Assembly: GCA_963808625.1 (NCBI GenBank)
Contig: CAWEHK010000051.1
Span: forward strand, 1-64,000
Direction: 5' to 3'
Length of the DNA stretch: 64,000 nucleotides
DNA from: an uncultured delta proteobacterium
GTDB taxonomy: Bacteria > Desulfobacterota > Syntrophobacteria > Syntrophobacterales > Syntrophobacteraceae
Each line of letters opens with the position of its first letter. Positions within the stretch are counted from its first letter, which is position 1. Below are positions 37,424-55,883 of this stretch, one piece after another. The translations under genes were made by a program, and so were the position numbers. Below the pieces are notes generated by a model. The model did no database searches, was not told where the DNA came from, and worked only from the letters and a program-made list of their open reading frames with translations.

Positions 37424-38203
37424 TTACAGCGCCTGATCAACATTGGGCACGACCAGTGCCCGGTCCCGGTAAGGGATCGAGCGGAGTTCGGTGCCGTATA
37501 CCCGCTGCAGCACCTCGGCGTCCCACGGCTTTTGGGAACTGCTCCATGATTCGATTTGCCCATCTTTTATAAAGACAAACCGGTCGCCATAAAGAAAGGC
37601 GATGTTCGGGTCGTGAAGCACGGCCACGACCGCGAGCTCCGAGCCCGCCAGCTCCCTGATCAGGCGCAGCACATGTGCCTGATTGACAAAATCAAGATGG
37701 GCAGTGGGCTCATCCAGAAGGACAATCTGGGGCTCCTGGGCCAGGACCCTCGCAATCATCACCAACTGCTGTTCGCCCCCGGAGAGTTCCGTGAAAGGGC
37801 GCCATCGCAAGTGGCTCACACCCACCTTCTCCAAAGCCATCAATGCTTTCTGTCGGTCCTCCTGCCCCGGAATCAGGTTCACATAGCTTGCCCGTCCCGT
37901 GAGCACAACATCCTCGACGGAGAACGGAAATATCGGGCGGTGGAATTGCGGCAGGTAGCCAATGATGCGGGCCCGCTCCCGGAGCGTGAGATCACCGAGC
38001 TCCCTGCCCATGACCTGCACCGTCCCTTGCTCAGGGTTGAGCAGGCCGGCCATGATTCGCAACAGCGTTGACTTGCCGCTCCCATTCCTTCCCAAAACGA
38101 TGGTGAACTGCCCCGGTTGGATTTCAACGGTAACGTTATCCAATACCCGCCTGCCGCCATAGCTGAAGGAAAGATGATGACATGTGAGCAGACGACTCTT
38201 CAT
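37424..38203 (-). CDS. FecE/BtuD-type ABC ATPase
   Basis: GRNGSGKS, LSGGEQQ and LLDEPT. Confidence 0.92.
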   Translation of the reverse strand: MKSRLLTCHHLSFSYGGRRVLDNVTVEIQPGQFTIVLGRNGSGKSTLLRIMAGLLNPEQGTVQVMGRELGDLTLRERARIIGYLPQFHRPIFPFSVEDVVLTGRASYVNLIPGQEDRQKALMALEKVGVSHLRWRPFTELSGGEQQLVMIARVLAQEPQIVLLDEPTAHLDFVNQAHVLRLIRELAGSELAVVAVLHDPNIAFLYGDRFVFIKDGQIESWSSSQKPWDAEVLQRVYGTELRSIPYRDRALVVPNVDQAL

Positions 38204-39210
38204 ATTTCCCACCCGAGTTTCGATCGTCGCAGCAGAAAAATGAAGAAGGGGCCGCCAATCAGGGTTGTAAAGATGCCTATCGGCACCTCGAAGGAAGCGG
38301 CAACACGAGAACAATCATCCACCAGGAGCAGGAACGATCCGCCAAGGGCGAGGGAGGCGGGTAAGGTTCGGGTGTTGTCCGGGCCGATCAGCATGCGCGT
38401 CATGTGCGGGACCACCAGCCCCACCAGGCCGATTACCCCGGCCACGGCTACCGAAGCAGACGCCGCCAGGGTTGCCGGGATGAGCACGAAAAGCTTCTGA
38501 TGCTCGGGATTTAACCCCACGGCCCGCGTTTCTTCGTCCCCCAGGGCCAGGACATTCATGCGCCACCGGAAGAGCAGGAGCCAGCCCACCCCTGCCAGGA
38601 TTCCCGGAGCCGAGGAATTGAGCTTCGCCCAGCTGGCATTGTGGAGATTCCCCATGGTCCAGTGGACAATCGTCTGAAGCTTGAAGGGGTCGGTCAAAAA
38701 CTGCACGATGGTGAGAAGTGCGGTAAAAATCCCGGAAACAATGATTCCTGAAAGAATCAGGGAGATGATGGTGACGCTTTTCCGGGTGCGAGCCAGGAAA
38801 TAGCTGGCCCCAACGGCAGCCATGCCAAAAGCGAAAGCGGAAACCTGGAGGGGCATCCACGAGGTGGCCAGGGCCAGCGCCGCACCGAAAGCCGACCCCG
38901 ACGACAGCCCCAGGAGATAGGGGTCAACCAGGGGATTTCGAAAAAGGGCTTGCAGCGCATTGCCGGACCCGGACAGCGCGGCGCCGACCAGGAATGCCAG
39001 CAAAATTCTCGGAAGGCGCACATCCCACACGATCGTACCAACGAGCCCGTCGCCGACCGCAGCAGACGATGCCGGCAAAAACCATGAACCGGTCAGCCAT
39101 GTCAGAACATCACTGGCGCTCACCGTATCGGCCGGCCCCAGGAATAAAGACACGATCAAAACCGGGAGCGGAGTTGCGTATATTAGATAAAGCGCCATTC
39201 TGGGACGCAA
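38200..39210 (-). CDS. FecCD/BtuC-type ABC permease
   Basis: VRLPR, QALFRNPLVDPYLLG and GLVVPH. Confidence 0.92.
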   Translation of the reverse strand: MRPRMALYLIYATPLPVLIVSLFLGPADTVSASDVLTWLTGSWFLPASSAAVGDGLVGTIVWDVRLPRILLAFLVGAALSGSGNALQALFRNPLVDPYLLGLSSGSAFGAALALATSWMPLQVSAFAFGMAAVGASYFLARTRKSVTIISLILSGIIVSGIFTALLTIVQFLTDPFKLQTIVHWTMGNLHNASWAKLNSSAPGILAGVGWLLLFRWRMNVLALGDEETRAVGLNPEHQKLFVLIPATLAASASVAVAGVIGLVGLVVPHMTRMLIGPDNTRTLPASLALGGSFLLLVDDCSRVAASFEVPIGIFTTLIGGPFFIFLLRRSKLGWEI

Positions 39211-39237
39211 AGCCTGATTCCTGTCGCCGCTCGCTAA

Positions 39238-39401
39238 GAGCGTGTCTTAAAACAGAAAGTAAGTGACCTTGTCATGATTTCCGACTGAGCCCCCGATCGT
39301 CATTCCCGCATGCATCTAGCGGGAATCCATGTTCTTAAAGGCCTGGACCCCCGCCAAACACATGCGGGGGTGACGCTCAGAGGGACTGTTTGGACACGCT
39401 C
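39238..39401. mobile_element. MITE with a TAA target duplication
   Basis: TIR GAGCGTGTC/GACACGCTC flanked by TAA at 39235-39237 and 39402-39404. Internal palindromes GTCATTCCCGC..GCGGGAATCC and CCCCCGC..GCGGGGGTGAC. Confidence 0.8.
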
Positions 39402-40443
39402 TAAGGCAGAAGCTCGATGAGAGCAGGCCTCTCGCCATACAGTTCCCGGACGAGGACCAGCTTCTCTCTTTCAGGTCCAGGTCGCGAAACAGCTCGGGAT
39501 AGCACCATTTGGCAACCATCTTCACGGCATACTGATACTTGAGGGTCCAAAGATCGCAGGAAAAGATGTCAGGAAACTCGTAAACCCGCTGCTGCCGCAC
39601 CGCGCTTATGGACTGCCACATGGGGTTATGCAGAATGTCGGCAGGATCTTTCCTCGCATTGTACCACATGACGATTACCTGCGGGTCCCATTTGAGGACC
39701 TTCTCCATATTGACTACGAGATGCTCCTGCTCGATGGAAGCGCAGACATTCACCGCCCCGGCCAGGGTGATCAGCTCATCGACGGTGCTCGGTCTGCCGG
39801 AGGTCTCCAGATCCCCCTGAGCCCACATGTAATAGACCCGCACCCGTCTCCCCCGGCGCCACGGCAGCGGTTCTGCTCGCACCTCGGCCCAGGGCCTCCT
39901 TGGTGCGAGCGACAAGCTCGACGGCCCTTTCCCGCTTCCCCGTCAGGTCCCCAAGGGCGAGCATTTCCTGGTAGACATCCTCGAAACTCCGGATAAAAAT
40001 CCCAAAAACCGGGATTCCCCGTTCTTCGAGAGCGCGAATGGCCTCTTCCTGATGCGCCCAGATGATCACCAGGTCGGGCTTCAACCCGACCACTTTTTCG
40101 ATATTGATGAAATCCCAGTTTCCGGGTGTGGGCAGACTCCTGCTGCGAATCCTCTCATCCATCGCCGCATAGTAGCGAAAGGTCTCTTCCTGATACACAT
40201 TAGCGGAGATGCCGACGACTCTCGCTTCCGCCCCCAGCATGTAAATGCCGCTGAGTGCGCTTTCGATGAGGCAGACGATCCGTTCTGCCGGTTGCCGGAG
40301 CAGAATATTTGCCTCGGAAGTCCTGCACTTCGATGGGTTGAGCGGAACCTTCTTGCGCAAAGGCCATGGCGAAAGAGGGAGGAATACTCCCCCTCGAACA
40401 CCTGGGTGAGCAGCAGTGCAATGAGCAGAAAAAACTTCAACAA
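39401..40443 (-). CDS. Periplasmic substrate-binding protein (FecB/BtuF class), several frameshifts
   Basis: Signal-like N-terminus, PAERIVCL, NIEKVVGLKPDLVI and VNMEKVLKWDPQVIV. Confidence 0.85.
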
Positions 40444-40478
40444 ATCCGCTTCAAACGCTCACTCCTCATTTCCCCATC

Positions 40479-40580
40479 CTTACTCCTGACTGCTTACTCC
40501 TGACTATTTTTGCCGTTACTCACTGCTTACTCCTCGCCTTAGCTTACTCCGCTTAGCTGCGCTCTACTCCACTCCCTACT
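40479..40580. repeat. Degenerate heptamer repeat (CTTACTC/CTGACT)
   Basis: About 7-bp periodicity in the intergenic region. Confidence 0.6.
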
Positions 40581-40604
40581 CATCACCCGTCGCGCCCTCC
40601 TTTG

Positions 40605-42671
40605 CTAGAAGCGCATTTCCACACCACCGGCCGCAGAAAAACCGGGGTCCTGGAACTGCCAGGGCATTTCATAGGTGTTATTGGTAATGTTGTAGAGATC
40701 CAGATGCAGATCCAGGTAATGGGCATCGTTCTGGATTAGGACCTTGGTCAATTTCATGTTCAAGACTTCGTAGGCATCAAACTGCTGCCGGCCGCTCCTC
40801 GAGTCGCTGTCATAAATGGAGCCGCTGACATGCAGGTAGAGAGCTGCCGAGAAGTTCTTGGGGAAGTCCAGGATGACTCCGACATTCCCCATATTTTCGG
40901 GGACAAATGGAATTTCGGTGCCGTCCTGATCGGGATAGAGGTCATTGCCAGACGCGCGAGTGGGTATAGGTGTAATTGCCAAACCACTGGAGCCAGGGGA
41001 GGAGCCGGTGCCGGATTTCAAACTCCACACCGTAGGAGGTGGCGCTGCCGGCGTTGACGTCTATGGACTGGGAAGGATCGTTACTGACCCGGTTGGTAAT
41101 GATGGCATTATCCAGCATATTGCCGAATCCGCGCAAACTGAGCTTGACGTTTTTGATCGGCTGATAATCGATTCCCAGGTCCGTCCCGAGGCCCGTTTCC
41201 GGTTGTAGACCCGGATTGGGAAGCTGACCGTTTTTGCCGGGAACTCCCACATCACTGGGAAGGAGCGTCCCGCCAATGGATTTGATCCCGGGGACGAGAA
41301 AACTCGAACCGGCATTTCCATAAACCGAGAGGTCTTCGGAGAAGTTATAGCGCACCCCGCCGCTCCAGAGAGGTTTGTCCCATGACTGGCTGTCTATGGC
41401 CGGGACCGTGCCGCCAATGAGGTCGTAGTTCTGCCACGACCAATTGTAGCGCCCGCCGGCGCGGAAGATCCAGTTGCACAAGTAATATTCTTCCTGCAGA
41501 TAGAGGCCTGATTGGTAGGCGCTGGCATCATTTCCAATCACCTGGTAGCCGTTGGCCGGCGTCGAAAAAGTCCGATAGGTCCCATACTGGAAATCGGTGC
41601 CGACCGTCAGGACGCTGTTTTCCAGGTGCCTGATCGAAAACGAAGCATCGGCGGGGAAGATTTTCTGTTCCACCCCGTTATTGGAATTGAGGCTGAGATC
41701 CGGATAGTTGTCCTCCGTCCAGCTCCGATCATAATTGCGGTAGCCCGCCTTCACCTGTGCCGTCAGTAATTGTTGATTTCATTGTAGTAATTGGCGTTGG
41801 CAATGGAGTAGGTGTGATCGAACGAGACGATTGGGGCGCCCCACGTTGCCGTCATGCCAGGTCTGGTTGCCAAAAAGGGAGAGCTTGTGGTTTTCGTCGC
41901 CGCCAAAGTAATAGGTTGCACGCCCGAAGAGCTTCAATTTCTGAATAATCGGGGTTATCGAGGATATGCAGCCACGAGTCCTGGGTCCCATAGTTGGTGT
42001 AATCGGATTTTTCCCCCCAGCCCCCCACATAAAAGTGGAGATTCTCAATCCGGTACTGGCCGATGCCATGGCCGGTGACGGTATTGTAGGAGCCGTAGTC
42101 AAGAGACCCCCGGGTTTGGTTTTCAAAGGTTCTTTCTTTCAGAATGAAATTGGTCGTTCCGGCCAGGGGACTCTGATTTCCGGCGAAGTCCTGGGAGAGG
42201 TAGTTGGGGTAGAGGACCGATGCCGGACCTTTTTGCGTCTCGATCCTCGCCAGCGCCCACGGGATCAAGGGCCATCGGGTCCACAAAGGAGTCGATGGGC
42301 AGGCCATCCAGAAGGTAGGTGTTATACTTGGGACCAAGTCCGCCATAGGAGCCCCAGTTGGCGTCATTCCTGGAGAGCACGTTGACGAAAACCCCCGGTG
42401 TATACATCAGCGCCTCGGCGATATTCCGATTTTCCAGGACGATCTGATCAAGAGTTTTCTGGGTGATGACATCCACCTTCTGCGTCACGTTGCCTTTCGT
42501 CTGGGGCAGCTTGGATGCCGTCACCACGATGCTCTCGAGTTGAGCAGCGCTCCCAAAGTAGCTCGCATCGTTCTGGTCTGGATTGGCTCCGGGATTCGCC
42601 TGTTGCGCGAAACAGGGCACGGGGATAAGGACGAGCATCAACAATGGTAAAATCGTCAAATAGTGCTTCAT
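40605..42671 (-). CDS. TonB-dependent outer-membrane receptor 1 (several frameshifts)
   Basis: Signal peptide, TonB box ESIVVTAS, plug (LLDGLP, KGPASVLY), NPGLQPETG and C-terminal GVEMRF. Confidence 0.9.
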
Positions 42672-42814
42672 GTCTCGGCTCCTTTCAACAATGAAGTTCA
42701 GCACTTTTCGCACAACCCATCGCCCCGGTCCGGCATCGCCGAAACCGCTGATGGGGTGCTTTGCTGTCCTTCGCGAGGGTGATGGGAAAATTTCGAGGAG
42801 TCGGCAGTCGCACG

Positions 42815-42947
42815 AAAAAAGCCACGACGACAGTCAACCCTCTTGGTCGAAAAGCCTTCGTGGCTCTGATTGTTTCCTAAAAACGCTCTGGCCTTTGCTG
42901 CGTTGCCTTCTCACCTTCCTGGTGAGGATCGCCTTCCCTTTAGCGCA
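42815..42947 (-). promoter_or_regulatory. Conserved structured leader RNA with a terminator, copy 1
   Basis: Colinear and highly similar to 50592-50725. Hairpin CUCACC-AGGAA-GGUGAG and terminator GCCACGA..UCGUGGC-U6. Confidence 0.75.
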
Positions 42948-43516
42948 GATGGGCTAAGATTTCAAGCTGAAAATGAGAAAAGAAGCACATACCGTCCGGA
43001 TTTTTTGCACCTCACGATCCGAGACTCCGATGCACGCCATATATATTAATGGAGAGCAGGTTCCGCAGACTATTATGCAGAGACCACAGCGCGGCGTAGC
43101 CGCAACCAAAACTGGGTGGGAATATTAACGATACCAACAGGTTCCAAAGAAAATCTTGGCAAAAAAACAAGAAACTCGGCATTAGTATCACAGGCAGCCG
43201 CTCGTCACGGCGAGCTGAACCTTTCAGCAGAGGATTTATACCGGAGTTTCAGTGGCTTCACATATTGCTTGACGAGCGCTCAAGGGGAAGCTAAGGAATA
43301 GCGGTCCCCGGGTTCGGAGAAAATTTCGCTCAATGAATGGGCGGGCCGGTGTGGTCCGGGGTTCGGTTTTTCCTGCCTTAATTTTATAGTATCTGGATCG
43401 AAAACATAGACTGTTTCACTGCCAGGTTACCTCGCAAATGAGGCCACGAAGGCCCCTGAGCCCGCTGTGAAAGCGGGAGGGGCGCCGGTATGTGGCACAT
43501 TCGCAAGGAGCCTATC

Positions 43517-45563
43517 ATGATTACCCGTTTCTTTTCCCTCCTGGTTCTTTTCCTGTTCGTTTTCATGCTCAGCATCGGGTTCATCGCACCCCTGGGCGGC
43601 AGCGCCGAGGCCCAGGACGACGACAGGGCAAATCCTCTTCGGATCAAGTCCCACTGGTGCGTCGTCCGCCACCGCAACCCCCAAGGAGAAGACCTATGCG
43701 CTGGAAGAGATCCTGGTGGTAGCGCCGCCTGTCATCGAGGGCAACCAGGTCAACCGCCTCGGGAGTCAGTCGACCGTTGTCAGTGAAAAACAAATCGAAG
43801 ACCTCAATGCCCAGGACCTCCCGCAAGCACTGCGCATGGTGCCCGGCGTCGTCATTTCCCGATTCAATCCCATCGGCAGTTTTGGCGGGCGGTGAGGGCG
43901 GCTCCATTTTCATTCGTGGCCAGGGCAGTTCACGGCCGGGAGCAGAAGTCCTGACGCTTATCGATGGCATCCCCAAGTTCGTAAGCGTCTGGACTCACCC
44001 TCTGATGGATGTTCTGAACGTGGATATCGCCGACAATATCCAGGTCTATAAGGGAGCGCAGCCGGTGCTCTACGGCAATATGGCGGTTGCCGGCGCGGTG
44101 GACATCACGACCAAGCGGAAGAAAGAAGACGGATTCTACACCAACCTTCAAGCCGCAGGCGGTTCCTACAACAGCGCCATCGAGGTCGCTCAGACCGGCG
44201 GCAGGATAAAGGCCCTGGACTATTACCTGGTCCAGAGCTTTCGCCGCTCGGACGGCCATCGGCCTGATGCCGACGGCGCCTTGCAGAACTACTTCGGGCA
44301 TATGGGCTACCAGATGTCGGGGAACTGGGATGCGGGCGTCACCTTCAACGCATCCAATAACTGGGCGGACGATCCCGGACGCATCGACGGCTTGGCCCCG
44401 ACCCCAGGGAACGTTCAAAACCAACGGACTACTTTACGGTGGCAACCATCGCCAACCAATACGAGTCACACGGACGGTTATTTCAAGGCCTATTCGGACG
44501 TCGGCCACATCAAATGGCTGGACCAGTTCAACACGACCACCAAGAAGAACACGGACGACACCCTGACCGATTACAACAATTACGGTTTCAGGGCTCGTCA
44601 AACGGTTAAGAGCATGGGATGGCGGGGAATTTCTCCTGGGCATGGATCTGGATGCGATCAGCGGACAGGTTGACCTGGTTTCGCCGTCGGCGGCAAGGCG
44701 GCATTGGGGCGATGAAACGTGGCATATATTTGCGCCTTACCTTGCCTTAAGTCAATTGTTCGGATCGAAAGACAGCTTCTATGCCATTCCCTCCGCCGGC
44801 GCCCGTTACTTTTCTCACGATCAGTTCGGGACCGAAATGGGGCCCCAGGCCGGGTCTGATTCTGGGGTACAAGGATACGGAATTCCATGCGATGTATTCT
44901 CGAGGCGTCAATTATCCCGGCCTCTTCGTGAAGGCGAACAGCGATCTCTTCATGCCGGGAGACAACAAATGGCAGAATTTGAGCCCCGAGACCGTCAATC
45001 ATTACGAAGTGGGCATCAGTCAGCGATACAAGAAATGGGCGAAGATCGATTTCACCCTTTTCTACGACGATGGTGACAATCGCATTGTCACGACTACGCC
45101 TCCTCCCTTCCCTCCCCTCTGGACCAATTTCGGGGCGTACCGCAACAAAGGCGTGGAAGGCACCGTGACGGTCTTTCCTCTCGATGATCTCTCCCTTTAC
45201 GCAGGAGCGACCTACCTCGACACCACGCCTTCCGATCTGCCTTATGCTCCCGAATGGAGTACGAGCTTCGGCGCGAACTACCGGTTCCTGAAATACTTTC
45301 AGGCAAGCCTGGATGCCCTTTATCTCACCGACTATTTTGTCAATTCCCGCGCCCGCAGTGCCACGGCCCTCAATATTGACAAGGTGGATGGCTATTTTCT
45401 CTTGAATGCCAAGCTCACTTATGATTTCAATATGCCTTTCCGCCAGATGAGGGGCCAGCTCTTTATCGCCGGCGAGAACTTGACCAATGCAAGCTACCAA
45501 CAAAAAGCCGGCTATCCCATGCCGGGGATAAACGGAATGGGTGGATTCAAACTGACTTTCTGA
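43517..45563 (+). CDS. TonB-dependent outer-membrane receptor 2 (frameshifted)
   Basis: AGGAG RBS, signal peptide, EEILVVAP, IFIRG..LIDGIP..VYKGAQPVLYG..GAVDITT and C-terminal GFKLTF. Confidence 0.9.
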
Positions 45564-45586
45564 AAGGATTGACGAGGGAACATCCG

Positions 45587-47076
45587 ATGCGCCGAAAATT
45601 CTTGCTTCTGGCCGCTTTGCTGGCGGTACAATTACTGTTTGTGGGCTCTCCCGGAGCGGCCCATGAAGCAGCGAACACCTATCATTGTCGACACCGATAT
45701 GGCCCTGGATGACGTCCGGGCGATCATCCTGCTGCTCAGTTCCCCGCACGTGGCCGTGACCGCCTTCGTTACCTCCGACGGCTCATCGTCTCCCGAAGCC
45801 GGCTCCCATAATCTGGAAAGGGTGCTCGCCTTCTTGGGCAAGAGCGACATCCCCGTCGGCACGGGTCGGCAGCTCAATCTGCCGCCTCCGCCCTGGCGGC
45901 CCATTTCGGAAGCGCTGGGCTGGGCGGACCTCCCCGCAGGAAGCCAGGGCACTCCCGGGGGAACACGCCCGGCGGTCCCGCTCATCCTCGAGGTGCTCTC
46001 CCAAAGCCGGGAACCGGTGAGCTATGTCTGCCTGGGGCCGCTCACCAACCTGGCCGACGTACTCCGCGAGCAACCGTCTGCGGCCCAACGGATAGCAAGC
46101 GTCATTTATTACGGCTTGCCGCCCGCAGCGCCCGATCCGGGATGGAACACGAGCCGCGACAAGGAGGCCGCGGAAATCGTGTTTCGCTCCGGCATACCCT
46201 TCTATGCCGTGCACTTGACGCCTGAACAATGGCTCACCTTCGATGCGGCGCTGTACCAGGAAATCGCCAAAATCGACACCGAACCGGCCCGCCTGATCAC
46301 CCGGCTCCACCAGCATGAAAAGACCCAGAAGCTGCTGCAGGCAAATCATTTCGTCGCCTGGGATGAATCGGTGGCATTGTACCTGGACGAACCGGCCATC
46401 GGCATTTTCAAGAAAATGGAGCAATCCGATTCCGTGTTCAGCGTGGCCGCATGGGATCGCGCCGCGGCGCGCGCCGTCTACCTGGCCATCCTCGCCAACC
46501 CGGCGACACCGGGGCTCGGCGGCCGCACCCCGGTGGTCCTCAGCGAGCTATCCCACTCAGCCGGCGCTCTTTCAGGAGGATCTCCGCCCGCTGGTTTCAA
46601 AGATCATTGCCCTCTACGGCCTCGAGGAGTGGCAGACCACCGTCCTCACCAACGAGTTGCACCGGCACTTGGGCATCTATTCCATCCTCGGCGCCAAGAT
46701 GGGAATCCGGGCGCGAGAACTGCTGTCGGCATCGCTTGATGAACTTGCCGTGGAGAGCTTCGCCGGCCTGGCACCACCGGTGAGCTGCCTCAACGACGGC
46801 TTGCAGGTGGCGACCGGGGCCAGCCTGGGAAGAGGCACCATCAGCGTGCCGACCACCGCCTCACCCACGGCCGAAGCCGTCTTTGTCAAGGGCAGCCGGA
46901 GGCTGCACCTGCGCCTGAAGGATGAGATCAGGAACCGCATTCGGGCCGATATCCAGCGGGCCGTTCAGCAGCACGGGAATCTCACCCCGGAGTATTTCAA
47001 GGAGGTGCGGAGGCTTTCCCTGCAATACTGGGCGGAGATGAACCGCGCGGAGATCTTTGAAGCCCGGTTCGAATAA
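45587..47076 (+). CDS. Nucleoside-hydrolase-like domain fused to an FmdE-like domain, probably exported (frameshifted)
   Basis: MRRKFLLLAALLA signal, IIVDTDMALDD, LGPLTN and WN..D. C-terminal NELHRHLG..GAKMG..SCLNDGLQVATGASLGRG. Confidence 0.8.
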
Positions 47077-47272
47077 CGGGCTTCCCGGAATGATCCCTGC
47101 ACCCTGGCAGGATCGCCTCAGCACTTGGCGATCGACATGACCACCGGGAAGTTTTGTCAGTAAAATTGGGCCAGGAAGGCTCCTGAGTTGAACACGGCAC
47201 GGTGGCGCTTGAGGCTTCTATATTGATGCAGCCTGCCACCGCCTATTTTTCAGTAAAAATGCAAAAAATGAT

Positions 47273-47300
47273 TTGACATTCCGTTTCTTCCATGTAGAAT
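47273..47300 (+). promoter_or_regulatory. Near-consensus sigma70 promoter
   Basis: TTGACA-16 nt-TAGAAT with an A-rich upstream tract. Confidence 0.65.
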
Positions 47301-47370
47301 GCTCTCACTTTGAGCATTGAAGCTCGAGAAACTGAGGTTATAGATCTTTCTGTTCTGAATTGGGTCATGA

Positions 47371-47409
47371 AGGCCGGAGGTGGAATGAACGTCACCTCTG
47401 GCCTTTTTT
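47371..47409 (+). terminator. Intrinsic terminator
   Basis: AGGCCGGAGGTG/CACCTCTGGCCT followed by a T tract. Confidence 0.75.
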
Positions 47410-48063
47410 GTCTTTGAGTAAGAGACTCAACTCGCTGAGACTGTTCGGGAGACGGATATCTTCTTCCTGTGTGCATAATCTGCTTTGTGCGCACCTGTTA
47501 ACAGGACCAATGACGAGAGTAGTGATGAACCGGGAGTTGCAAACAGAGCAAGTTTTGCAGAGTGGCGGAGTAATATTGTCACCTCTTGATGTGATCTTGT
47601 GAATGATGTGCTCCTCCGGGCAGTCATCTCAAAGTAGTAGACAGAGTTGTAGGTTCAAAAAAATTTAACGCAGGGCGCAAACCGATCTCCTCGGGTCGTA
47701 TACGCCGTAACACCAAAGGGGGCCAGAAGGCCCCCTATCCTTCCTCATCAAAAGATAGAAACATGATCGGATGCTTGCTTCGCAGCCGATGTTTCGTGGT
47801 GAATAGATATTATCATATTTGTGGTCCTGGCAGTCTGATAGTTCTTAGCCTACGAGAAGGTGAACTTCCTTGAGCGTTTGCAGGAAAGAGCCCAACGCAT
47901 GGCGCGCCAGGGGAATTGGAAAACAAGGTTAGGAGTGTGGTCACGAAGGCCAGCAGTGATGCTGGCTTTCGTGTTTTGGTGCGCTGGTGGGAGCCGGAAA
48001 CTGCCGTTCACTTTGAGAATCCTTCGACTTCGATGCAGGCCGGTGCTGCAGGAGGAGGTTGCC

Positions 48064-49174
48064 ATGCCCGTCAACCGGAAGCGCGACGCGCTGGTTTTGG
48101 ACCAGGGGGAAATCGAGAGGCTTCAAACCATTCAATCCTCAGGAAAGGAATCTCCTTGGTCCGTCGTTCGTGCGGGAATTCTATTACGATACGCCCGCGG
48201 TGAAGCCATCAGCGAAATTGCCCGCCAAGAAGGTGTGAGCCGCCCCACCGTCCAGCATTGCCTCGACAAGGCTTTGTCGGGGGGCATAGAGACGGCGATT
48301 CGCGACCTGTCCCGTACGGGACGGCCCTCCATGGTGACCGCTGAAGACAAGGCCTGGGTAATGCACCTTGCTTGCTCCAGGCCCAGAGAGCATGGATATG
48401 AGTCAGAAGAATGGACTTTGAGCCAATTGACCAGCCATGTTCGAAAACACGCAACAGAGACAGATCATCTCTCGTCGAGATGCTCAGAAATACATTATTC
48501 GTACGATAATAAAGGAGTCGGCAGGTAGTCCCCACAATGTGGCCTATTATTCCGACCGACGGGAGCCGGAAGACGGGGCAAGAATGGCTTCCCTCTTTGC
48601 CGTCGCCAAGGATGTTGAACTGCTGCTGGAAACCGGCGCAGAGAGGGGCATCAGGAACACAGAAATCCCCCACAGCCGCCCCCGGAACTCCAAGGGGCGT
48701 GCTGCCACCGATATTACCGCGGACCTGGTTTCAGAACCGAATTCGCATCCCTTCTGGTTCAGAGACTACGAACGCGACCAGCTCGGGAGGGTTCATCTGC
48801 TGGCTGGGATTGATCTTTGCGATGGTCACGTCATCGCGACGGTTTGCGACAAGAGCCGGAAGCAGGGGTTTGTCGATTTCCTGGAGGTTGCCGACGACCA
48901 CTACCCGCCGGACTGGCGAATCAGGATTTTGCTAGGCGGCCGCTCGGCCGATGTCTCCAGACAGAACATGAAAGCACTGAGAAGATACCCCAATCGCTTC
49001 GAGTTCGTTCACGCCGATGGGGATGAATCGTGGCTGAACCTTGTTGATCTTTTTTTCACCAGAATGACACGAGGGTTCGTCAGGTCGATACGGGCAAAAT
49101 CAAAGGCAGAGTGTATCAACCGCATCAATGATTACGTCGGAGAGATCAATTTCCTGCCGGCCGGCATCACCTGA
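48064..49174 (+). mobile_element. IS630-family transposase-like gene, degenerate
   Basis: RAGILL..ISEIAR..VSRPTV HTH, DLSRTGRP, WTLSQL, then LLAGIDL..G.V, PNRFEFVH..SWLNLV. Canonical DDE positions appear substituted. Confidence 0.8.
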
Positions 49175-49254
49175 CTTTGCCGTCCGAAAGTGAGCAAGCT
49201 CAGCCGTAGATACCCTCTCCCCTTTTGACACCGAATACGGCGCCCCATCCCGAA

Positions 49255-49464
49255 TCAGGCATGAATTTCGACGGTAAAATCTTCCACGAACAGAATCCGG
49301 CGGAGGTTGAGATTGATTTCCTGAATCCGGGCCGTCATCCGGTACTGCCGCCCGTATATGTCATGGATGAAGACTTCCTCTCTTTCAGACGCAACGATGT
49401 TAACATTCTCAAGGATGAGTTGCGCCCTTCCACCCCGCACCAGATAGGCTTCGACCTCGCACAT
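49255..49464 (-). CDS. CooT-family nickel-binding protein
   Basis: MCEVEAYL..ILENV..DIYG..ARIQEINL, with the conserved Cys2 of this family. Confidence 0.8.
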   Translation of the reverse strand: MCEVEAYLVRGGRAQLILENVNIVASEREEVFIHDIYGRQYRMTARIQEINLNLRRILFVEDFTVEIHA

Positions 49465-49515
49465 ACTCGTCCTCCTCAATCGATGCTGCTCGGTTCGACC
49501 TTTTGCTCCTGATTC

Positions 49516-50019
49516 TCAGGCCTTCAAGTGTTTGACAGGTTTCTCAACACCGAGGGACGAATTTTGAGACCGAGATTGATGTCGGATTTGGGCAAGGTCG
49601 CTGCCATTCATGATGGCGGACAGATGTTCGTTGACCAGCTTGTCAACCAGATGAGGCAGAGGGGTAAAGACGGTGCCCACAATGACCACAGGTTCCAGGG
49701 TGAGGGGCAGCAGCAGTTTGATCGCCTTCGCTGCACCGGTTGCGTGGGCCATGGCCGGACTGACCTCTCCCATCATCGCGTTGCTGATGATAATCGAAAT
49801 CGGTCCGATGATCACATCCACCTGATGGACACAATGACAGACGGCGTTTTCTCCGGTCGCACCCCGGTTTGCACCGACTTTCATCATCTGGGAAGTCGCC
49901 ACAGCATTGGTTCCGATGGCCCAGATTTCCACCCTCTCGCCATAGGCCTGCCTGATCTCTCTGATGATAGCGGAACCGATACCCGCTCCCTGTCCATCTA
50001 TTACTGCGATCCGGATCAC
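49516..50019 (-). CDS. DUF3842-like protein
   Basis: IAVIDGQGAGIG, GTNAVAT.QMMK.GANRGATGENA and MMGEVSPAMA. Confidence 0.85.
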   Translation of the reverse strand: MIRIAVIDGQGAGIGSAIIREIRQAYGERVEIWAIGTNAVATSQMMKVGANRGATGENAVCHCVHQVDVIIGPISIIISNAMMGEVSPAMAHATGAAKAIKLLLPLTLEPVVIVGTVFTPLPHLVDKLVNEHLSAIMNGSDLAQIRHQSRSQNSSLGVEKPVKHLKA

Positions 50020-50037
50020 AATCCCACTCCCTGAAAC

Positions 50038-50226
50038 TTAGCCTTCTTCCAGCACGATCCGGTGATTGACGAGATTCATCTCTTTAATGCGTCCCTTCAC
50101 CCAGCGCTGTTGTCCAAAGATGCCCTGAATGAAAACGTTCTCACTATCGGGCTTGATGATATCCGCGCTTTCCATAATGAGCTCTTCTTTCCCTCCAACG
50201 AGCAAATAAACGTTTGCCTCACACAT
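50038..50226 (-). CDS. CooT-family nickel-binding protein
   Basis: MCEANVYL..EELIMES..IFGQQ..IKEMNLVNHRIVL. Confidence 0.85.
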   Translation of the reverse strand: MCEANVYLLVGGKEELIMESADIIKPDSENVFIQGIFGQQRWVKGRIKEMNLVNHRIVLEEG

Positions 50227-50591
50227 CTTCTCATCCTTTCTCCCCAGTCTGCGTCCTTAGCAAACTGCGGCATTGAGATCCTGAAAGCATTGCTTCGAGA
50301 AAACGCCCTCTCACCTCCGAAAACACTCTCCGCTCGTGCCAAAGATTGCCGTGAAGCTTTTCGTCTCTCCTCCTTCCTCCTGAGGGCATGGCGTCGCATG
50401 AACAAGAAAAGCCACACAACGCGGTTCACCCATCTCCGGGCAGGTTAAAGACTTTCGCAGCCTTTGCTTCACAAGCTGAACGGAAAGCTTTCCGCAACAC
50501 AAATGTTCGCTGATTTACGAGAAAGGCACAAGAAACGCCTCAGTCGAGGCAGGTATCAACAGAGGGGCGGGAGCGCGTGGTGCTGTCGGAC

Positions 50592-50725
50592 AAAAAAATC
50601 CACGACGACATTCAACCCCTTTGGTCGAAAAGCCTTCGTGGCTCTGATTGTGTTCCTAAAATGCTTTGGTTGTTGCTGAGTTACTCTCTTACCTTCCTGG
50701 TAAGCATCGCCTTGTTTTTAGCGCA
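50592..50725 (-). promoter_or_regulatory. Conserved structured leader RNA with a terminator, copy 2
   Basis: Homologue of 42815-42947. Hairpin CUUACC-AGGAA-GGUAAG and terminator CCACGA..UCGUGG followed by A and U7. Confidence 0.75.
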
Positions 50726-50826
50726 TTCGGTGTGGAATTACAAGATCAAAGTCTCCATGCAATTGCCATGGGAGAGAGATTTTGTTCTGTTGACCTATGT
50801 CGATAAGCATGGTAGGCGTTGTAGGG

Positions 50827-50841: not shown

Positions 50842-50900
50842 TAAATAACCTGGAGTCAGGAACTCCGGAACACGCCATAACCAAGCGAATGAAATGTAAA

Positions 50901-50957
50901 GCCATGAAGGCTTGCGATCCTCTTAAGGGGACGTTTGCCCTCATGGCTTTTTATTTT
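50901..50957 (+). terminator. Leader terminator/attenuator upstream of cbiM
   Basis: GCCATGAAGGC...GCCCTCATGGC followed by a T tract, about 65 nt before the cbiM start. Confidence 0.7.
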
Positions 50958-51022: not shown

Positions 51023-51628
51023 ATGCACATTTCTGAAGGAGTGCTCAGTCCGGCGGTCCTGGGCGCCGGGGCCGCGTTGGCGGCCGTGGGAACCGCCATT
51101 GGTCTGAAAAAGATGGAATACGATGCCATTCCCAGGGTGGCCATCCTGTCCGCCGCTTTCTTTGTGGCCACCCTGATTCATGTGCCGGTAGGACCAGTCG
51201 GTTTGCACCTCGTGCTAAACGGCCTCATGGGGCTGCTGTTGGGGTGGACGGCGGTGCCCGCTATCCTGATCGCCCTGTTCCTGCAGGCCCTCCTCTTCCA
51301 GTTCGGAGGGCTGACCGTGTTAGGGGCGAATACGGTCATCATGGCTCTCCCTGCCGTGGTCTGTTTCTATTTGTTTCGCCCCTTGTTTCGTCGTCCCGGT
51401 ATCGCTCAGTCGGTGGGGGCTTTTGCCTGCGGTTTCACCGCTATTTTGCTCAGCGCGCTGTTGGTGGCCGTAGCCCTCATTTCCACCGGCCAGGCCTTTT
51501 TGCAAGTGGCCGAACTGGCCGTTCTGGCCCATATTCCGGTGATGTTCATCGAAGCCATCGTCACCCTGTTTATTTTCCTGTTTCTTAGAAAGGTTCGCCC
51601 CGAAATGCTGGAGGATTTGTATGCCTAA
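51023..51628 (+). CDS. cbiM: ECF Co/Ni transporter substrate component CbiM/NikM
   Basis: MHISEGVL N-terminus and LQALLFQFGGLTVLGAN. Confidence 0.92.
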   Translation: MHISEGVLSPAVLGAGAALAAVGTAIGLKKMEYDAIPRVAILSAAFFVATLIHVPVGPVGLHLVLNGLMGLLLGWTAVPAILIALFLQALLFQFGGLTVLGANTVIMALPAVVCFYLFRPLFRRPGIAQSVGAFACGFTAILLSALLVAVALISTGQAFLQVAELAVLAHIPVMFIEAIVTLFIFLFLRKVRPEMLEDLYA

Positions 51629-52349
51629 ACAGACGCCACCAATATTCGCCAGTGATTCTTTCCTTTATCGTCCGATCTCCGCTAAAACCTCCCACCCTTG
51701 GCTCATCCCGATCATGCTTTGCCTCTGCCTCCTGACCCTGGCCTCCCCGGCCCTGGCCCATCGGGTGCTCGTCTTCGCCTATGCCGAAGGCGACACCATC
51801 CATACCGAAAGCAAATTCGTGGGCAGCGGTGCGGTGCAACAAGGGAAGGTGCAGATCCTGGATCAAAAAACCGGGAAGGTCCTCTTGACCGGGACTACCG
51901 ACGACCAGGGCAAATTCTCTTTCAAAATTCCCCCCGAGGCTGCCGCCCAAAGGCTGGATCTGCTCGTCGTGGTGGAGGCCTCTATGGGCCACCGTGGCGA
52001 ATGGCAGATGAAAGCCCACAGCTATCTTCCAGGCGCTGAAACGGCTGCCGGCGCGGCTACTCCCGTCGCGCCAAGCCCTGCTGCTGCCGGCGCACCAACT
52101 TCGGAGGCCCCTGCAACCCCGACGCCGCTGGCTCCTCCCGATATCAGGGCGCCCGCCGTCGACCGGCAGATGCTGGAGGAGACCCTGAATAAGGTTTTGG
52201 AACGCCAACTCGCCCCCATCAAGGAAATGCTGGCGGAATCACAGGTGCACAAGACTACCCTGACCGACATCATCGGCGGCATCGGTTATATCATGGGCAT
52301 CTTTGGCCTGCTGGCCTATTTTCAGAGTAAGAAGAAGAAGGATTCGTGA
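51621..52349 (+). CDS. CbiL/NikL-like accessory membrane protein
   Basis: Signal ending ALA-HRV, GTTDDQGKFSF, MGH and C-terminal IIGGIGYIMGIFG. Confidence 0.7.
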   Translation: MPKQTPPIFASDSFLYRPISAKTSHPWLIPIMLCLCLLTLASPALAHRVLVFAYAEGDTIHTESKFVGSGAVQQGKVQILDQKTGKVLLTGTTDDQGKFSFKIPPEAAAQRLDLLVVVEASMGHRGEWQMKAHSYLPGAETAAGAATPVAPSPAAAGAPTSEAPATPTPLAPPDIRAPAVDRQMLEETLNKVLERQLAPIKEMLAESQVHKTTLTDIIGGIGYIMGIFGLLAYFQSKKKKDS

Positions 52350-53812
52350 GCGGCATTCAAGAGCCTTTCTCCGAAGGCAACTCTTTGATCCACCGCCTCG
52401 ACCCCCGGGGCAAGACAATCGTGGCCGGCCTTTTCGCTGTTATGGTGGCCGTGGCCAAATCCATGCCCGCGGCCTTGGCCGGGCTGGTGCTGTCTCTGCT
52501 CTGCCTGGCCCTGGCGCGTCTTCCTCTGAAAAAGGTGATCGTGCGGCTGCTGGTGGTGAACAGCTTCATTTTTTTCCTCTGGTTCGTATTGCCGCTGACC
52601 TACCCGGGGGATGCGGTGCTTACCTTCGGGCCCCTGTCCGCCACCCGGCAGGGCCTGATCTTCACCGCTCTGATCACCCTGAAATCCAATGCTATTATCA
52701 TTGCCCTCATGGCTTTGGTCGCCACGGTGCCGGTCGTCACTCTGGGACAGGCAATGCACGATATGCGGTTGCCCGACAAATTGTGTCATTTGCTGCTCTT
52801 TACCTACCGCTACCTCTATGTCTTTGAGCAGGAATTCCACCGCCTGGTCCAGGCCATGAAAATCCGCGGCTTTCAGCCGCGCACCAATCTCCACACCTAT
52901 CGCTCCTACGCCTATCTGGCGGCCATGCTGCTGGTGCGCAGCTATGACCGGGCCGACCGCGTTTTTCAGGCCATGTTGTGCCGTGGTTTTCACGGCATTT
53001 TTTACAGCCTGCGCACCTTTTCCTGGCAGCGCCGTGATTGGGTATTAGTGGTGGTATCCACGCTGGCGTTGGCGATGCTCCTCTATCTGGAGTGGCAGAT
53101 GCCCAACCTCGCTAGTGAGGATATGATGAGTGAACCATTGATTGAGTTGCATGACATCACGTTTGCCTACCCCGGAGCCACCCACCCGGTTTTTCAGGGC
53201 CTGAACTATCAGCTCCTGCCGGGCAAACAGATCGGCCTCATCGGTCCCAACGGCTGCGGCAAGACCACCCTCTTGCACCTGATCATGGGGCTGTTGCGCC
53301 CCCAGGCGGGCAGCATCGTCGTTTTCGGGCAGGAAGTCAAAAAAGAGAAGGATTTCGTCGAGGTCCGGCAAAAGGTGGGCCTGCTGTTCCAAAACGCCGA
53401 CGATCAGCTCTTCTGTCCCACCGTCTTAGAAGATGTGGCCTTCGGCCCACTGAACCAGGGGAAACCACCGGCGGAAGCGATAAAGATCGCGCGGGAGACC
53501 ATGGAGCGGCTGGGACTTGAGGGCTTCGAAGACCGGGTGACCTATAAGCTCTCCGGGGGCGAGAAGAAACTGGTCTCCCTGGCCACCGTCCTGGCCATGC
53601 AGCCTCAGGTGCTCCTCCTGGATGAGCCCACCGCGGGCCTGGATGAGAAGACCAAGAAGCGTCTCATCCATATTCTTAAGAACCTGGATATTACTTTCAT
53701 GGTCGTGTCGCATGAAAATGATTTTTTGGAGCATACCGTGGGGGAATGCTGCCATGTTCATACCAGCTTTTGCGAATTTATTCCAATGGGCCAAGGGGGG
53801 AGATTGTTATGA
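52346..53812 (+). CDS. cbiQ: CbiQ (T component) in frame with CbiO (ATPase, internal start near 53123)
   Basis: HRLDPR, FTYRY, AMKIRGF and AMLCRGF, then GPNGCGKT, QLFCPTV.EDVAFG, LSGGEKK and LLDEPT. Confidence 0.88.
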   Translation: MSGIQEPFSEGNSLIHRLDPRGKTIVAGLFAVMVAVAKSMPAALAGLVLSLLCLALARLPLKKVIVRLLVVNSFIFFLWFVLPLTYPGDAVLTFGPLSATRQGLIFTALITLKSNAIIIALMALVATVPVVTLGQAMHDMRLPDKLCHLLLFTYRYLYVFEQEFHRLVQAMKIRGFQPRTNLHTYRSYAYLAAMLLVRSYDRADRVFQAMLCRGFHGIFYSLRTFSWQRRDWVLVVVSTLALAMLLYLEWQMPNLASEDMMSEPLIELHDITFAYPGATHPVFQGLNYQLLPGKQIGLIGPNGCGKTTLLHLIMGLLRPQAGSIVVFGQEVKKEKDFVEVRQKVGLLFQNADDQLFCPTVLEDVAFGPLNQGKPPAEAIKIARETMERLGLEGFEDRVTYKLSGGEKKLVSLATVLAMQPQVLLLDEPTAGLDEKTKKRLIHILKNLDITFMVVSHENDFLEHTVGECCHVHTSFCEFIPMGQGGRLL

Positions 53813-54844
53813 GAAGCGCACGTTATCTCTTAATGGTATTGTTCGTACTATCACTGACCGCATCGAAGCCGGTTTGGTCGGCAAGGGAATCACCCGGAAC
53901 AGCCGGCGAAAAGGTTGCAAGGGAGTCGGGGGCGCCTGCAGAGCGGTGCTGCGATTGGAGGCCGCGGCGAAGGCTTCGAACCCGAAGCTGAGGCAACTAA
54001 GGGAGAGGAAATCCCCGCCACCTTCGGGCCCATCGTCACCGATACCGCCATACCCGTCGAGAAGGGCAAGTTCGTGATTCAGCCCACCTTTGGCTACAGT
54101 TTCGTAAATAGCATTTTTAACGAGAACTGGAAACGGGCTTCAGCCGGCGGCAATTTCCAGTCCTTCTCCATGGATTGGAAATTGACCTACGGCCTGATCG
54201 AAAACATGGAGGTCTTCGTGGTCATCCCCTATGCCCACAACTGGGCCAGAAAGGTCATTGAACCGGGCCCCGATGGCGAGACCTCGGCGAATTCCGGCGG
54301 CCTGGCCGATATCAACCTGACTTTGAAATACCGCCTGGTGGAAGAAACGGAATGCCTGCCCACCGTAACCGCCTTGTTTGCCACCGATTTCCCCACCGGC
54401 AAATTTAAGAACCTGAATCCCAGTGCCCTGAATACCGATGTTATCGGCGGCGGCGCCTATGTCTTCACCCCCGGGGTCAATGTTTCCAAGTATATCAAGC
54501 CATTCATCGTCTACGGCAATCTCTGGTACTCGATGCCCACCTCTTTTACTGACGACGGCGGGAAGGCGTATCCTGGAGATTTTGTCACCGTCAATCTGGC
54601 CGCCGAATATCCCATAACCAAAAAATGGGTGGCCCTCCTGGAGTTGACCAGCTCCTGGGGCGGCGGACGTCTCTTCGGCCCCAAGACCAATTTGCCGCAA
54701 GAGTCTCTGGTTTCCATTATGCCGGGAATTGAATACATGGCCACGGACAAATTTTCCGTGGCTCTGGGCTTGAATATCGACCTCGTCGGAAGAAACACCG
54801 ACGTCGCAATAACGCCGCTATTGTCCATGGTCTATGGTTTCTAA
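53809..54844 (+). CDS. Putative outer-membrane beta-barrel transporter (frameshift near 53940)
   Basis: Signal peptide, GPIVTDTA, GGLADINLTLKY, FPTGK, and a C-terminal Phe. Confidence 0.7.
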
Positions 54845-54942
54845 ACCGCTGCCGGTAAGGAGATCGTTGCGAGACGGTGACAATTTCGTAGCGCAACTGC
54901 AGGCTTTGCTTGCCAACAATCAAGCTTAAATGGAGGGAAATC

Positions 54943-55520
54943 ATGAAAAAATTCTTTGTGCCTTGCCTATGTCTGATGTTCGTCCTCGTTCTGACCCAGG
55001 TCAGCCTGGCTCATTTCGGCGTGATCATGCCTGACAAATCCATGGTAATGCAGGGCGTCAGTCCCAAGCTTGAACTGACCCTGGCGTTCTGCCATCCCTT
55101 TGAACAGAATGGCATGGTCATGGCAAAACCTAAGGCCTTTATGGTACAGTCCGGGAAGGACAAAACCGATCTTCTCAAGAGTCTTCAGGAAACCAGGGTG
55201 TTGAACAACCAGGCCTGGAAGACGAGTTACACTCTGAAGAAACCGGGGGTCTACGCCTTTTACTTCGACCCCCAGCCCTATTGGGAAGGCGCTGAAAACA
55301 AATATATCATCCACCAGACCAAGACCTATGTGGCTGCCTTTGGCGGAGAAGAGGATTGGGACCAGGAAGTGGGTTTGAAGGCCGAAATCATTCCCCTGAC
55401 CCGTCCCTTTGGCCTTTACGCCGAATGTGTTGCAGGGCATATTCAAATTCAAAGGCAAGCCGGTTGCCGATGCCGATGTGGAAGTGGAATACTGGAACGC
55501 CGAGAAGAAGGTGACCGCTG
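54943..55520 (+). pseudogene. DUF4198-like (Co/Ni uptake periplasmic) protein, 3'-truncated
   Basis: SLA-HFGVIMP, FCHPFE, PQPYWE and EIIPLTRPFGLY, then GKPVADADVEVEYWN in a shifted frame. Homology ends near 55518. Confidence 0.75.
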
Positions 55521-55883
55521 TGCTATTCCTGCTCTTCGTGGTGAGTTCTTGAACTTGGCAACATTCTTCAGGTGCTAAATAATTTCTTCGGCATCAGCGT
55601 CACTCTGGGCACCTTCTTAACGGGAGGCGGCTGGAACTCTTTCCTCATCGAGGAACACCATCGCTTGAAAAATCCGTTTTCACCACGCATCACAGACCCG
55701 ATGCGGTGCATCCGCAGAGCTGACCAGGCCTTCAGACCGGTCATAAAATGCCAGGCAATTTGTTGTGCTGTTGCGATATTGCTAGACTGGAATCCGTTAT
55801 GAAAAAAAGGAGTTGACTATTCTTGCGATGGTTGGGTTTATTGAGCGGTCTGACATTTCGCACATACCAGCAATGAATGGCAG

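What the first reader, a model, noticed from the sequence alone, without database searches (positions are those of the whole stretch)
42815..50725. Two-copy ~133-nt structured leader RNA in front of metal-uptake operons: candidate undescribed riboswitch/attenuator
Seen: 42815-42947 and 50592-50725 (both minus strand) are colinear homologues with unrelated flanks. Both read GCGCUAAA..AAGGCGAU-[hairpin]-..CAGCAA..CCA.AGC..UUUUAGGAA..CAAUCAGAGCCACGAAGGCUUUUCGACCAA..GGGUUGA.UGUCGUCGUGG.-U6/7. The inner hairpin has a compensatory pair change (CUCACC-AGGAA-GGUGAG versus CUUACC-AGGAA-GGUAAG), CUAAA/UUUAG can close the domain, and a long terminator follows. Copy 1 leads a TonB-receptor/ABC uptake operon and copy 2 leads CooT-DUF3842-CooT. 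Established knowledge: from memory it does not resemble the cobalamin, NiCo, Moco or yybP-ykoY consensus. Inference: a cis-regulatory RNA sensing a metal (Ni/Co) or metal cofactor, directly or through a protein.
Basis: partly seen in the sequence, partly recalled or inferred. Interest (0 to 1): 0.82.

Follow-up and report, generated by a model that had tools for sequence, protein, structure and literature searches.

The report
Nickel-uptake attenuator RNA with GAA loops
The two look-alike leaders belong to a widespread, uncatalogued RNA stop-or-go switch in front of nickel-uptake genes; it is probably read by a protein (DUF3842 with the nickel-binder CooT) rather than by the metal itself, and would explain how many anaerobes control nickel import without the usual regulator NikR.

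Summary
The two copies are real (83% identical) and match no Rfam family. The conserved unit is smaller than proposed: promoter, hairpin P1 with an ANGAA loop, a 30-45 nt spacer, then mini-hairpin P2 (GCC-ANGAA-GGC), which is also the 5' arm of an intrinsic terminator. The proposed 5' aptamer motifs are absent or at chance level in 161 homologues; GCGCUAAA probably lies in the -10 box. Three more copies lie in the window (before tonB, nikM, and a degenerate one). The family spans Desulfobacterota, Nitrospirota and Bacillota, covaries, and precedes nickel-type uptake genes. In 251 phylum genomes the strict motif is in 52 of 98 with DUF3842 and 5 of 153 without; DUF3842 and NikR nearly exclude each other. 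Best reading: protein-dependent antitermination by DUF3842/CooT at low nickel, ANTAR-like in logic but not an ANTAR target. RNA binding and nickel response are inferred, not shown. This scan noted the same family before on other DNA; I retested it here. Not found in the papers searched.

The parts
42937..42965 (-).
   Evidence: Best site under a family-derived matrix, score 10.1, above the window's 99.99th percentile of 9.9; 47 nt from TTG to the P1 GAA, family mode 46-49. Not called by the generic scan. Inferred.
42910..42926 (-). Copy 1 P1, 6-bp hairpin with AGGAA loop
42815..42867 (-). Copy 1 P2 (ACGAA loop, 42851-42867) overlapping the 5' arm of the intrinsic terminator with U6
   Evidence: forcing P2 costs 3.5 kcal/mol
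37424..42671 (-). Operon under copy 1: TonB-dependent receptor, periplasmic binding protein, FecCD permease, ABC ATPase (receptor and binding protein in frameshifted pieces)
   Evidence: Pfam; breaks may be assembly errors
50715..50743 (-). Copy 2 putative promoter (-35 at 50743-50738, -10 at 50720-50715)
   Evidence: Same 17-nt spacing and 47-nt distance as copy 1, but weak: score 3.8, second best in 240 nt. Inferred.
50688..50704 (-). Copy 2 P1, 6-bp hairpin with AGGAA loop
50592..50645 (-). Copy 2 P2 (50629-50645) and terminator with U7
   Evidence: forcing P2 costs 6.8 kcal/mol
50038..50226 (-). cooT-1, 62 aa, with Cys2 and His55; candidate nickel sensor
   Evidence: Pfam CooT E 1e-24; PDB 6fan; Cys2 and His55 invariant in 95 homologues
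49516..50019 (-). DUF3842, 167 aa, small Rossmann-like fold with a Gly-rich first loop; candidate antiterminator
   Evidence: Pfam E 6e-50; model pLDDT 87; unspecific Rossmann matches, best Z 9.8; role from co-occurrence only
49255..49464 (-). cooT-2, divergent second copy
50850..50952 (+).
51023..55578 (+). nikM, nikL, nikQ/O, porin, nikK (DUF4198): Nik-type ECF transporter
   Evidence: Pfam; NikL model over cut-off, cobalt-type TIGR00123 far below cut-off; gene set like nikKMLQO in PMC545781
35928..36079 (+). Fourth leader, missed: TTGACA at 35928, P1 with AAGAA loop 35984-35998, P2 with AGGAA loop 36023-36039, terminator with the compensating change, before tonB (36132)
43328..43496 (+). 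Degenerate fifth leader: AUGAA hairpin 43328-43342, P2 43442-43454, hairpin without U-run, before a divergent TonB-receptor gene
   Evidence: not found by the covariance model at E<=1

Best explanation
A protein-dependent transcription attenuator of nickel uptake. Transcription starts a few bases before P1. The nascent RNA shows two small hairpins with ANGAA loops, and the second (P2) is made of the terminator's 5' arm. By default the terminator folds and transcription stops at the U-run. A protein that binds both loops holds P2 and lets polymerase read through; binding P2 can only oppose termination. Since the genes import nickel, the binder should be active at low nickel. Shown: the RNA architecture, covariation, gene context, co-occurrence, near-exclusion with NikR. 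Inferred: start site, termination, protein binding, which protein binds, nickel as signal, direction of control.
For: Covariation not forced by the search pattern: the variable P2-loop base and its terminator partner are C-G 102, U-A 48, U-G 9, C-A 2 of 161; purine variants mostly carry the compensating base too; the outermost pair is A-U 40, G-C 11, G-U 9 of 64. A P1 hairpin lies within 110 nt upstream in 91 of 161 against 6.4 in shuffles (downstream control 19 of 159, far-upstream control 15 of 118); strict ANGAA form 44 of 124 against 2.3, stems use all four Watson-Crick pairs, C-G closes 41 of 52. A TTGAC-like hexamer lies within 70 nt of P1 in 71 of 90, 47 of them at 35-49 nt. 55 of 79 leaders with readable downstream DNA have an uptake or nickel-related family among the first two ORFs tested (my tally), including nikM, nikK, nikL, nikA/B-like and larE-larB. 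Strict motif in 52 of 98 DUF3842+ and 5 of 153 DUF3842- genomes; 0 of 55 CooT+/DUF3842-; DUF3842 with CooT in 97 of 98; DUF3842 and NikR together in 12, against 86 and 108 alone. The covariance model finds E<=0.001 hits in 20 of 39 remaining DUF3842+ genomes and 2 of 41 CooT+/DUF3842- genomes. DUF3842 is in 9 of 9 Nitrospirota and 7 of 9 Bacillota leader carriers. No NikR and no NikR box found here; six cobalamin riboswitches lie elsewhere in this genome. R. rubrum CooT binds one Ni per dimer, Kd 9 nM, through Cys2 (PMC6006190).
Against: No experiment and no expression data. DUF3842 has no known RNA-binding fold and few invariant basic residues. Co-occurrence also fits DUF3842/CooT being mere members of the regulon, and kin are not independent. 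7 of 28 hand-picked leader-carrying genomes lack a detectable DUF3842, among them L025, L042, L060 and L062, which look genuine (completeness not given); G053 and G224 have model hits without DUF3842. 70 of 161 leaders show no P1 by my rule, and P2 extends beyond 3 bp only weakly (94 against 86 by chance). 19 of 98 DUF3842+ genomes showed no leader by any of three searches at my cut-offs. A second DUF3842 in this genome lies before cobU/cobS-like ORFs (named by eye) with no leader, and one leader precedes a chelatase subunit, so cobalt is not excluded. G000 is only 84.6% complete.
Confidence: 0.55

Rival explanations
1. Same attenuator, different reader: a third, unidentified RNA-binding protein (or a CooT subfamily alone) reads the loops, and DUF3842 is only a co-regulated nickel-handling protein.
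For: DUF3842 is Rossmann-like with a Gly-rich loop. Some genuine-looking leaders are in genomes without detectable DUF3842; the G224 hit lies about 110 nt before a cooT. Sources label CooT 'predicted RNA-binding protein'.
Against: 0 of 55 CooT+/DUF3842- genomes have the strict motif and 2 of 41 have a strong model hit. DUF3842, usually single-copy, nearly excludes NikR as a substitute regulator would. CooT's likeness to Hfq is weak (Z 3.0). No genome-wide screen for other co-occurring families was run.
Confidence: 0.2
2. Protein-read attenuator whose signal is cobalt, a corrinoid or another metal cofactor rather than nickel.
For: CbiM-family, FecCD/BtuC-like and methyltransferase genes are frequent downstream; one chelatase subunit; a DUF3842 paralogue beside cobU/cobS-like ORFs; cobalamin riboswitches lie further downstream in 2 of 20 loci scanned.
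Against: NikK, NikL, PDGLE partners, nikA/B-like genes, larE-larB and CooT point to nickel; near-exclusion with NikR; this genome has six separate cobalamin riboswitches.
Confidence: 0.12
3. A true riboswitch: the RNA binds a metal or cofactor directly.
For: Structured leader with terminator before metal-uptake genes; two copies 83% alike over 144 nt.
Against: Proposed core motifs: 0, 0, 4 (expected 4.3), 3 (3.0) and 1 (0.8) of 161. Only short loops are conserved and the spacer varies in length and sequence. The 5' end is probably promoter DNA. The tie to one protein family is not expected of a riboswitch.
Confidence: 0.08
4. Not an RNA switch: a DNA operator palindrome, a plain terminator, or a small mobile repeat.
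For: The outer stem is an inverted repeat and a few members read the same on both strands (L032, L141).
Against: Three strict copies in 4.8 Mb, all before uptake operons; first ORF on the same strand in 67 of 79; G-U pairs tolerated, compensatory changes, inner hairpin more stable than shuffle in 152 of 161, one-sided U-run; reversed-pattern control 1 of 251 genomes.
Confidence: 0.05

Closest known systems
ANTAR-target dual-hairpin leaders (EutV, NasR, AmiR; PMC3369931)
   Same: Two short hairpins with conserved loops, the second overlapping the 5' arm of an intrinsic terminator; several copies across one regulon.
   Different: Loops are ANGAA pentaloops, not hexaloops with A1 and G4; 42 nt between stems here against 5-12 nt in E. 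faecalis eut; candidate reader is DUF3842/CooT; genes are for nickel uptake.
NikR regulon of nikMNQO / nikKMLQO in deltaproteobacteria (PMC545781)
   Same: Same target genes (nikM, nikL, nikK, nikQO).
   Different: NikR is a DNA-binding repressor; here NikR and its box were not found, and DUF3842 genomes mostly lack NikR.
NiCo (czcD) riboswitch (PMC11672702, passages)
   Same: RNA-level metal control in anaerobes through a 5' leader.
   Different: NiCo is a four-way junction that binds metal directly and is linked to efflux; this element has no junction core, precedes uptake genes and has no Rfam match.
CooT nickel chaperone of CODH maturation (PMC6006190; PDB 6fan, 6y8v)
   Same: Family member with Cys2 and the same fold (Z 11.7 and 9.8).
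   Different: Here paired with DUF3842 and uptake genes; a regulatory role is not described in the passages read.

Membership tests
ANTAR-target RNA | Two hairpins with at least 3-bp stems | tested here: met
   P1 6 bp and P2 3-6 bp in copies 1 and 2; P1 in 91 of 161 members
ANTAR-target RNA | Second hairpin mutually exclusive with an intrinsic terminator | tested here: met
   P2 is the terminator's 5' arm; constrained folding
ANTAR-target RNA | Hexanucleotide loops with A1 and G4 | tested here: not met
   Loops are ANGAA (G at position 3) or NGAA; definition from PMC3369931
ANTAR-target RNA | Short linker (5-12 nt in E. faecalis eut) | tested here: not met
   42 nt between stems in copies 1 and 2; loop-to-loop mode 45-54 nt
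ANTAR-target RNA | ANTAR protein in the genome | tested here: inconclusive
   None found, but the control genomes gave no hit either
Known riboswitches in Rfam (NiCo, cobalamin, Moco, yybP-ykoY, M-box) | Match to the family covariance model | tested here: not met
   0 hits in the window at gathering score; none on the copies at E<=10; none on the element in 20 homologous loci
Riboswitch (general) | Compact aptamer core conserved across distant members | tested here: not met
   Proposed core motifs absent or at chance level in 161 members
Riboswitch (general) | Direct, protein-free ligand binding | not testable with these tools
   Needs in-line probing
MITE / REP repeat | Many scattered copies, indifferent to gene orientation and function | tested here: not met
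   3 strict copies in 4.8 Mb, 4 with a looser rule; same-strand first ORF in 67 of 79; uptake genes in 55 of 79
NikR regulon | nikR gene and operator box | tested here: inconclusive
   No NikR_C in G000, control positive, but genome 84.6% complete; no box at up to 3 mismatches in the window, chance expectation 0.67
RNA-binding antiterminator protein (for DUF3842) | Known RNA-binding fold or shown RNA binding | tested here: inconclusive
   Only unspecific Rossmann-like matches, best Z 9.8, rmsd 7.5, 134 aligned; binding not testable

The most novel reading that the evidence does not exclude
DUF3842 and CooT form the first nickel-sensing RNA-binding antiterminator: a regulatory system that replaces NikR across Desulfobacterota, Nitrospirota and Bacillota, reads a new class of dual ANGAA-hairpin leaders, uses a Rossmann-like domain as a new RNA-binding module, and gives CooT a signalling role beyond CODH maturation.
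Probability: 0.45. Interest if true: 0.88.

Novelty: new variant of a known kind. Interest (0 to 1): 0.72.

Why it matters
Many nickel users lack NikR, and a NikR-independent control was suspected but not identified (PMC2667541, passage). This gives it concrete parts: an RNA motif, a candidate reader, a candidate sensor. DUF3842 is in 98 of 251 sampled genomes of this phylum and nearly excludes NikR. In the reviews searched, metals are sensed by DNA-binding proteins or riboswitches; a metal-responsive RNA-binding antiterminator was not found. It would give a DUF and CooT a function, and the motif can flag unknown nickel transporters (TonB receptors, porins, ECF S-components) in syntrophs, sulfate reducers and acetogens. 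Every step is testable with two small proteins and a 110-nt RNA.

Tried and rejected
A 5'-domain pattern over GTDB genomes gave 0 hits. BLAST over 60 relatives gave one full-length homologue; other hits covered mostly the terminator. The generic promoter/terminator scan called neither the promoters nor the bulged terminators. Sequencing runs: no RNA holder listed, so no reads were laid. Complex prediction of a CooT dimer with DUF3842 gave no verdict (score 0.00). ESM Atlas gave no usable hit for DUF3842. DUF3842 against PDB sequences: only weak short-chain dehydrogenase hits, E>=0.04. My recalled idea that CooT is Sm/Hfq-like got weak support only (Hfq Z 3.0). Model R1 was built with a mis-registered structure and not used; R2 replaced it. 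The four window hits of R2 were in its training set and are no test. One search covered 41 of the 55 CooT+/DUF3842- genomes. Literature: ten searches; one search was swamped by unrelated uses of 'coot'. DUF3842/PF12953 appears in one paper (PMC10580051, listing only, on Ralstonia exopolysaccharide). Term searches of the main text of PMC5737381, PMC11109978, PMC2965389, PMC1913097 and PMC12591593 gave no nickel hit; the supplement of PMC2965389 lacks the motif strings. The supplements of PMC5737381 and PMC11109978 could not be read and could hold a related motif. Rejected readings: CUAAA/UUUAG closure, MITE, NikR operator, ANTAR membership, known riboswitch.
Full report
1. Observation. Both stretches exist as described and align at 83% over 144 nt, E 4e-36; they are the only full-length copies in the 4.8-Mb assembly G000. 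Rfam gives nothing at gathering score in the window and nothing on the copies at E<=10. The terminators fold far better than shuffles (z -3.5, -3.8); the 5' halves do not (z -0.05, -1.5). Pfam confirms the gene context: TonB receptor, periplasmic binding protein, FecCD and ABC ATPase behind copy 1; CooT, DUF3842, CooT behind copy 2. Several genes are in frameshifted pieces, but so are rpoB and rpoC, so these are probably assembly errors.

2. The conserved unit is smaller than proposed. Among 60 relatives only G007 (same genus) holds the full length; other hits cover mostly the terminator. A strict terminator pattern occurs three times in G000, all in this window, the third before nikM. A looser rule adds a fourth before tonB with an AGGAA loop and the compensating base; a degenerate fifth without U-run lies before a divergent TonB receptor. 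The idea to read the terminator's 5' arm as an ANGAA mini-hairpin, and to test DUF3842 as reader, came from four earlier notes of this scan; I tested both here.

3. RNA structure. In 161 members (loci, own locus left out; related genomes are not independent) the free base of the P2 loop and its terminator partner are C-G 102, U-A 48, U-G 9, C-A 2; the pattern allowed all four. The unselected inner hairpin is more stable than its shuffles in 152 of 161. An upstream hairpin with an (N)NGAA loop and at least 4 pairs is in 91 of 161, against 6.4 in shuffles, 19 of 159 downstream and 15 of 118 far upstream. The strict ANGAA form was in 44 of 124 against 2.3, with all four Watson-Crick pairs in the stems and a C-G closing pair in 41 of 52. 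On 64 aligned terminators two pairs show two-sided changes, five depart only by unpaired cells and three never vary. P2 itself extends beyond 3 bp only weakly (94 against 86).

4. Promoter. A TTGAC-like hexamer precedes P1 in 71 of 90 members. A matrix from 63 of those 90 (selected on the -35, so only the -10 signal is unselected) ranks 42965 first near copy 1 (10.1; window 99.99th percentile 9.9) and 50743 second near copy 2 (3.8, weak). Both, and G007, are 47 nt from the P1 GAA, within the family mode. GCGCUAAA then overlaps the -10 box and is probably not transcribed. The generic scan called no promoter, so this is inference.

5. Genes controlled. With a crude ORF caller the first ORF is on the same strand in 67 of 79 leaders (3 short loci left out, 41 loci had no flank). 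First-ORF families: CbiM 8, methyltransferase 8, porins 7, DUF3842 4, DUF4198 3, TonB receptor 3, ExbB 3, others 13, no hit 30. Adding second ORFs and retests (50 proteins, 14; not all 73 second ORFs were tested), 55 of 79 have an uptake or nickel-related family, 6 only FmdE or methyltransferase, 2 something else, 16 nothing (my tally). One leader precedes larE-larB, one a chelatase subunit. The window's nikM operon carries NikL and NikK, like the NikR-controlled nikKMLQO of PMC545781 (passages).

6. Who reads it. Over 251 genomes of the phylum (250 at least 90% complete, plus G000): strict leader 57, DUF3842 98, NikR 120, CooT 152. Leader with DUF3842 52, without 5 (by eye poorly paired); leader in CooT+/DUF3842- genomes 0 of 55; DUF3842 with CooT 97 of 98; DUF3842 with NikR 12; leader with NikR 9 of 57. 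Purine-loop variants: 16 genomes, 13 DUF3842+, 7 of them new. A covariance model hit at E<=0.001 in 20 of the remaining 39 DUF3842+ genomes and 2 of 41 CooT+/DUF3842- ones. So 79 of 98 DUF3842+ genomes show a leader. Among 28 hand-picked leader carriers from other or unnamed phyla, 21 have DUF3842 and 3 NikR; four of the seven misses look like genuine leaders. cooT lies within 500 nt behind DUF3842 in 47 of 52 genomes that I transcribed from the top rows, nearest copy chosen. G000 has two DUF3842, three CooT, no NikR found. CooT keeps Cys2, the nickel ligand in R. rubrum (PMC6006190, passages). DUF3842 folds confidently as a small Rossmann-like domain with no specific match.

7. Mechanism. The terminator is favoured over P2 by 3.5 and 6.8 kcal/mol in copies 1 and 2, so the default is off. 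A binder of P1 and P2 can only antiterminate. For uptake genes it should act at low metal. I put DUF3842/CooT with nickel at 0.55; another reader 0.2; another signal 0.12; direct riboswitch 0.08; not a switch 0.05. Nothing here shows binding, termination or nickel response.

8. Known systems. It works like ANTAR antitermination (PMC3369931, passages) but fails the loop and linker tests. It fills NikR's role on NikR's targets. It is not NiCo or another Rfam family (NiCo description from PMC11672702, passages of the first 300,000 characters). Ten paper searches found no description; two motif-discovery supplements were unreadable, and most subscription papers are not held. Papers seen: passages only for PMC545781, PMC2667541, PMC3369931, PMC6006190, PMC11247825, PMC11672702; term searches for PMC5737381, PMC11109978, PMC12591593, PMC1913097, PMC2965389 (with its supplement); listing only for PMC10580051. 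Gene names nikK/nikL follow PMC545781; cobU/cobS and the housekeeping labels are recalled.

9. Verdict. A real, apparently undescribed attenuator family: new variant of a known kind, interest 0.72.

Noticed in passing
window 36023-36079 (+), 50898-50952 (+), 43443-43496 (+): Three further copies of the core, making the window a five-leader metal-uptake island; copy 2 and the nikM leader face away from each other across about 250 nt.
   Followed up: yes
window 39316-45563; G000 contig C22: TonB receptors and a binding protein are in frameshifted pieces and nikQ/O read as one ORF; rpoB and rpoC are broken too, pointing to indel errors in the assembly.
   Followed up: partly
window 47860-49174 (+): Transposase-like HTH ORFs between the CooT operon and the FmdE gene. 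In G007 the order is tonB, cooT, DUF3842, leader, so this locus is rearranged and copy 2 may be a recent duplicate.
   Followed up: partly
window 50227-50591 (-): 366 nt between copy 2's U-run and the cooT start, with no match elsewhere in the genome and none in the G007 locus beyond the cooT start; unexplained.
   Followed up: partly
G000:C5:3998-6151 (-): A second DUF3842 lies directly before cobU- and cobS-like ORFs (named by eye), without cooT and without leader.
   Followed up: no
G000:C51:65935-67733 (-): Two cobalamin riboswitches in tandem just past the window's end.
   Followed up: no
L032:3001-3057, L141:256-353; G275:C23, G031:C10, G309:C14: Some members match on both strands, so one hairpin could serve two divergent operons.
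   Followed up: no
loci: 38 of 161 members show a third GAA motif inside the terminator's inner part; the two copies of this finding do not.
   Followed up: partly
L041:2393-2923, L065:2421-2978; L045, L069, L103: ECF S-components and long repeat proteins of unknown function sit behind the leader: candidate new nickel or metallophore uptake parts.
   Followed up: no
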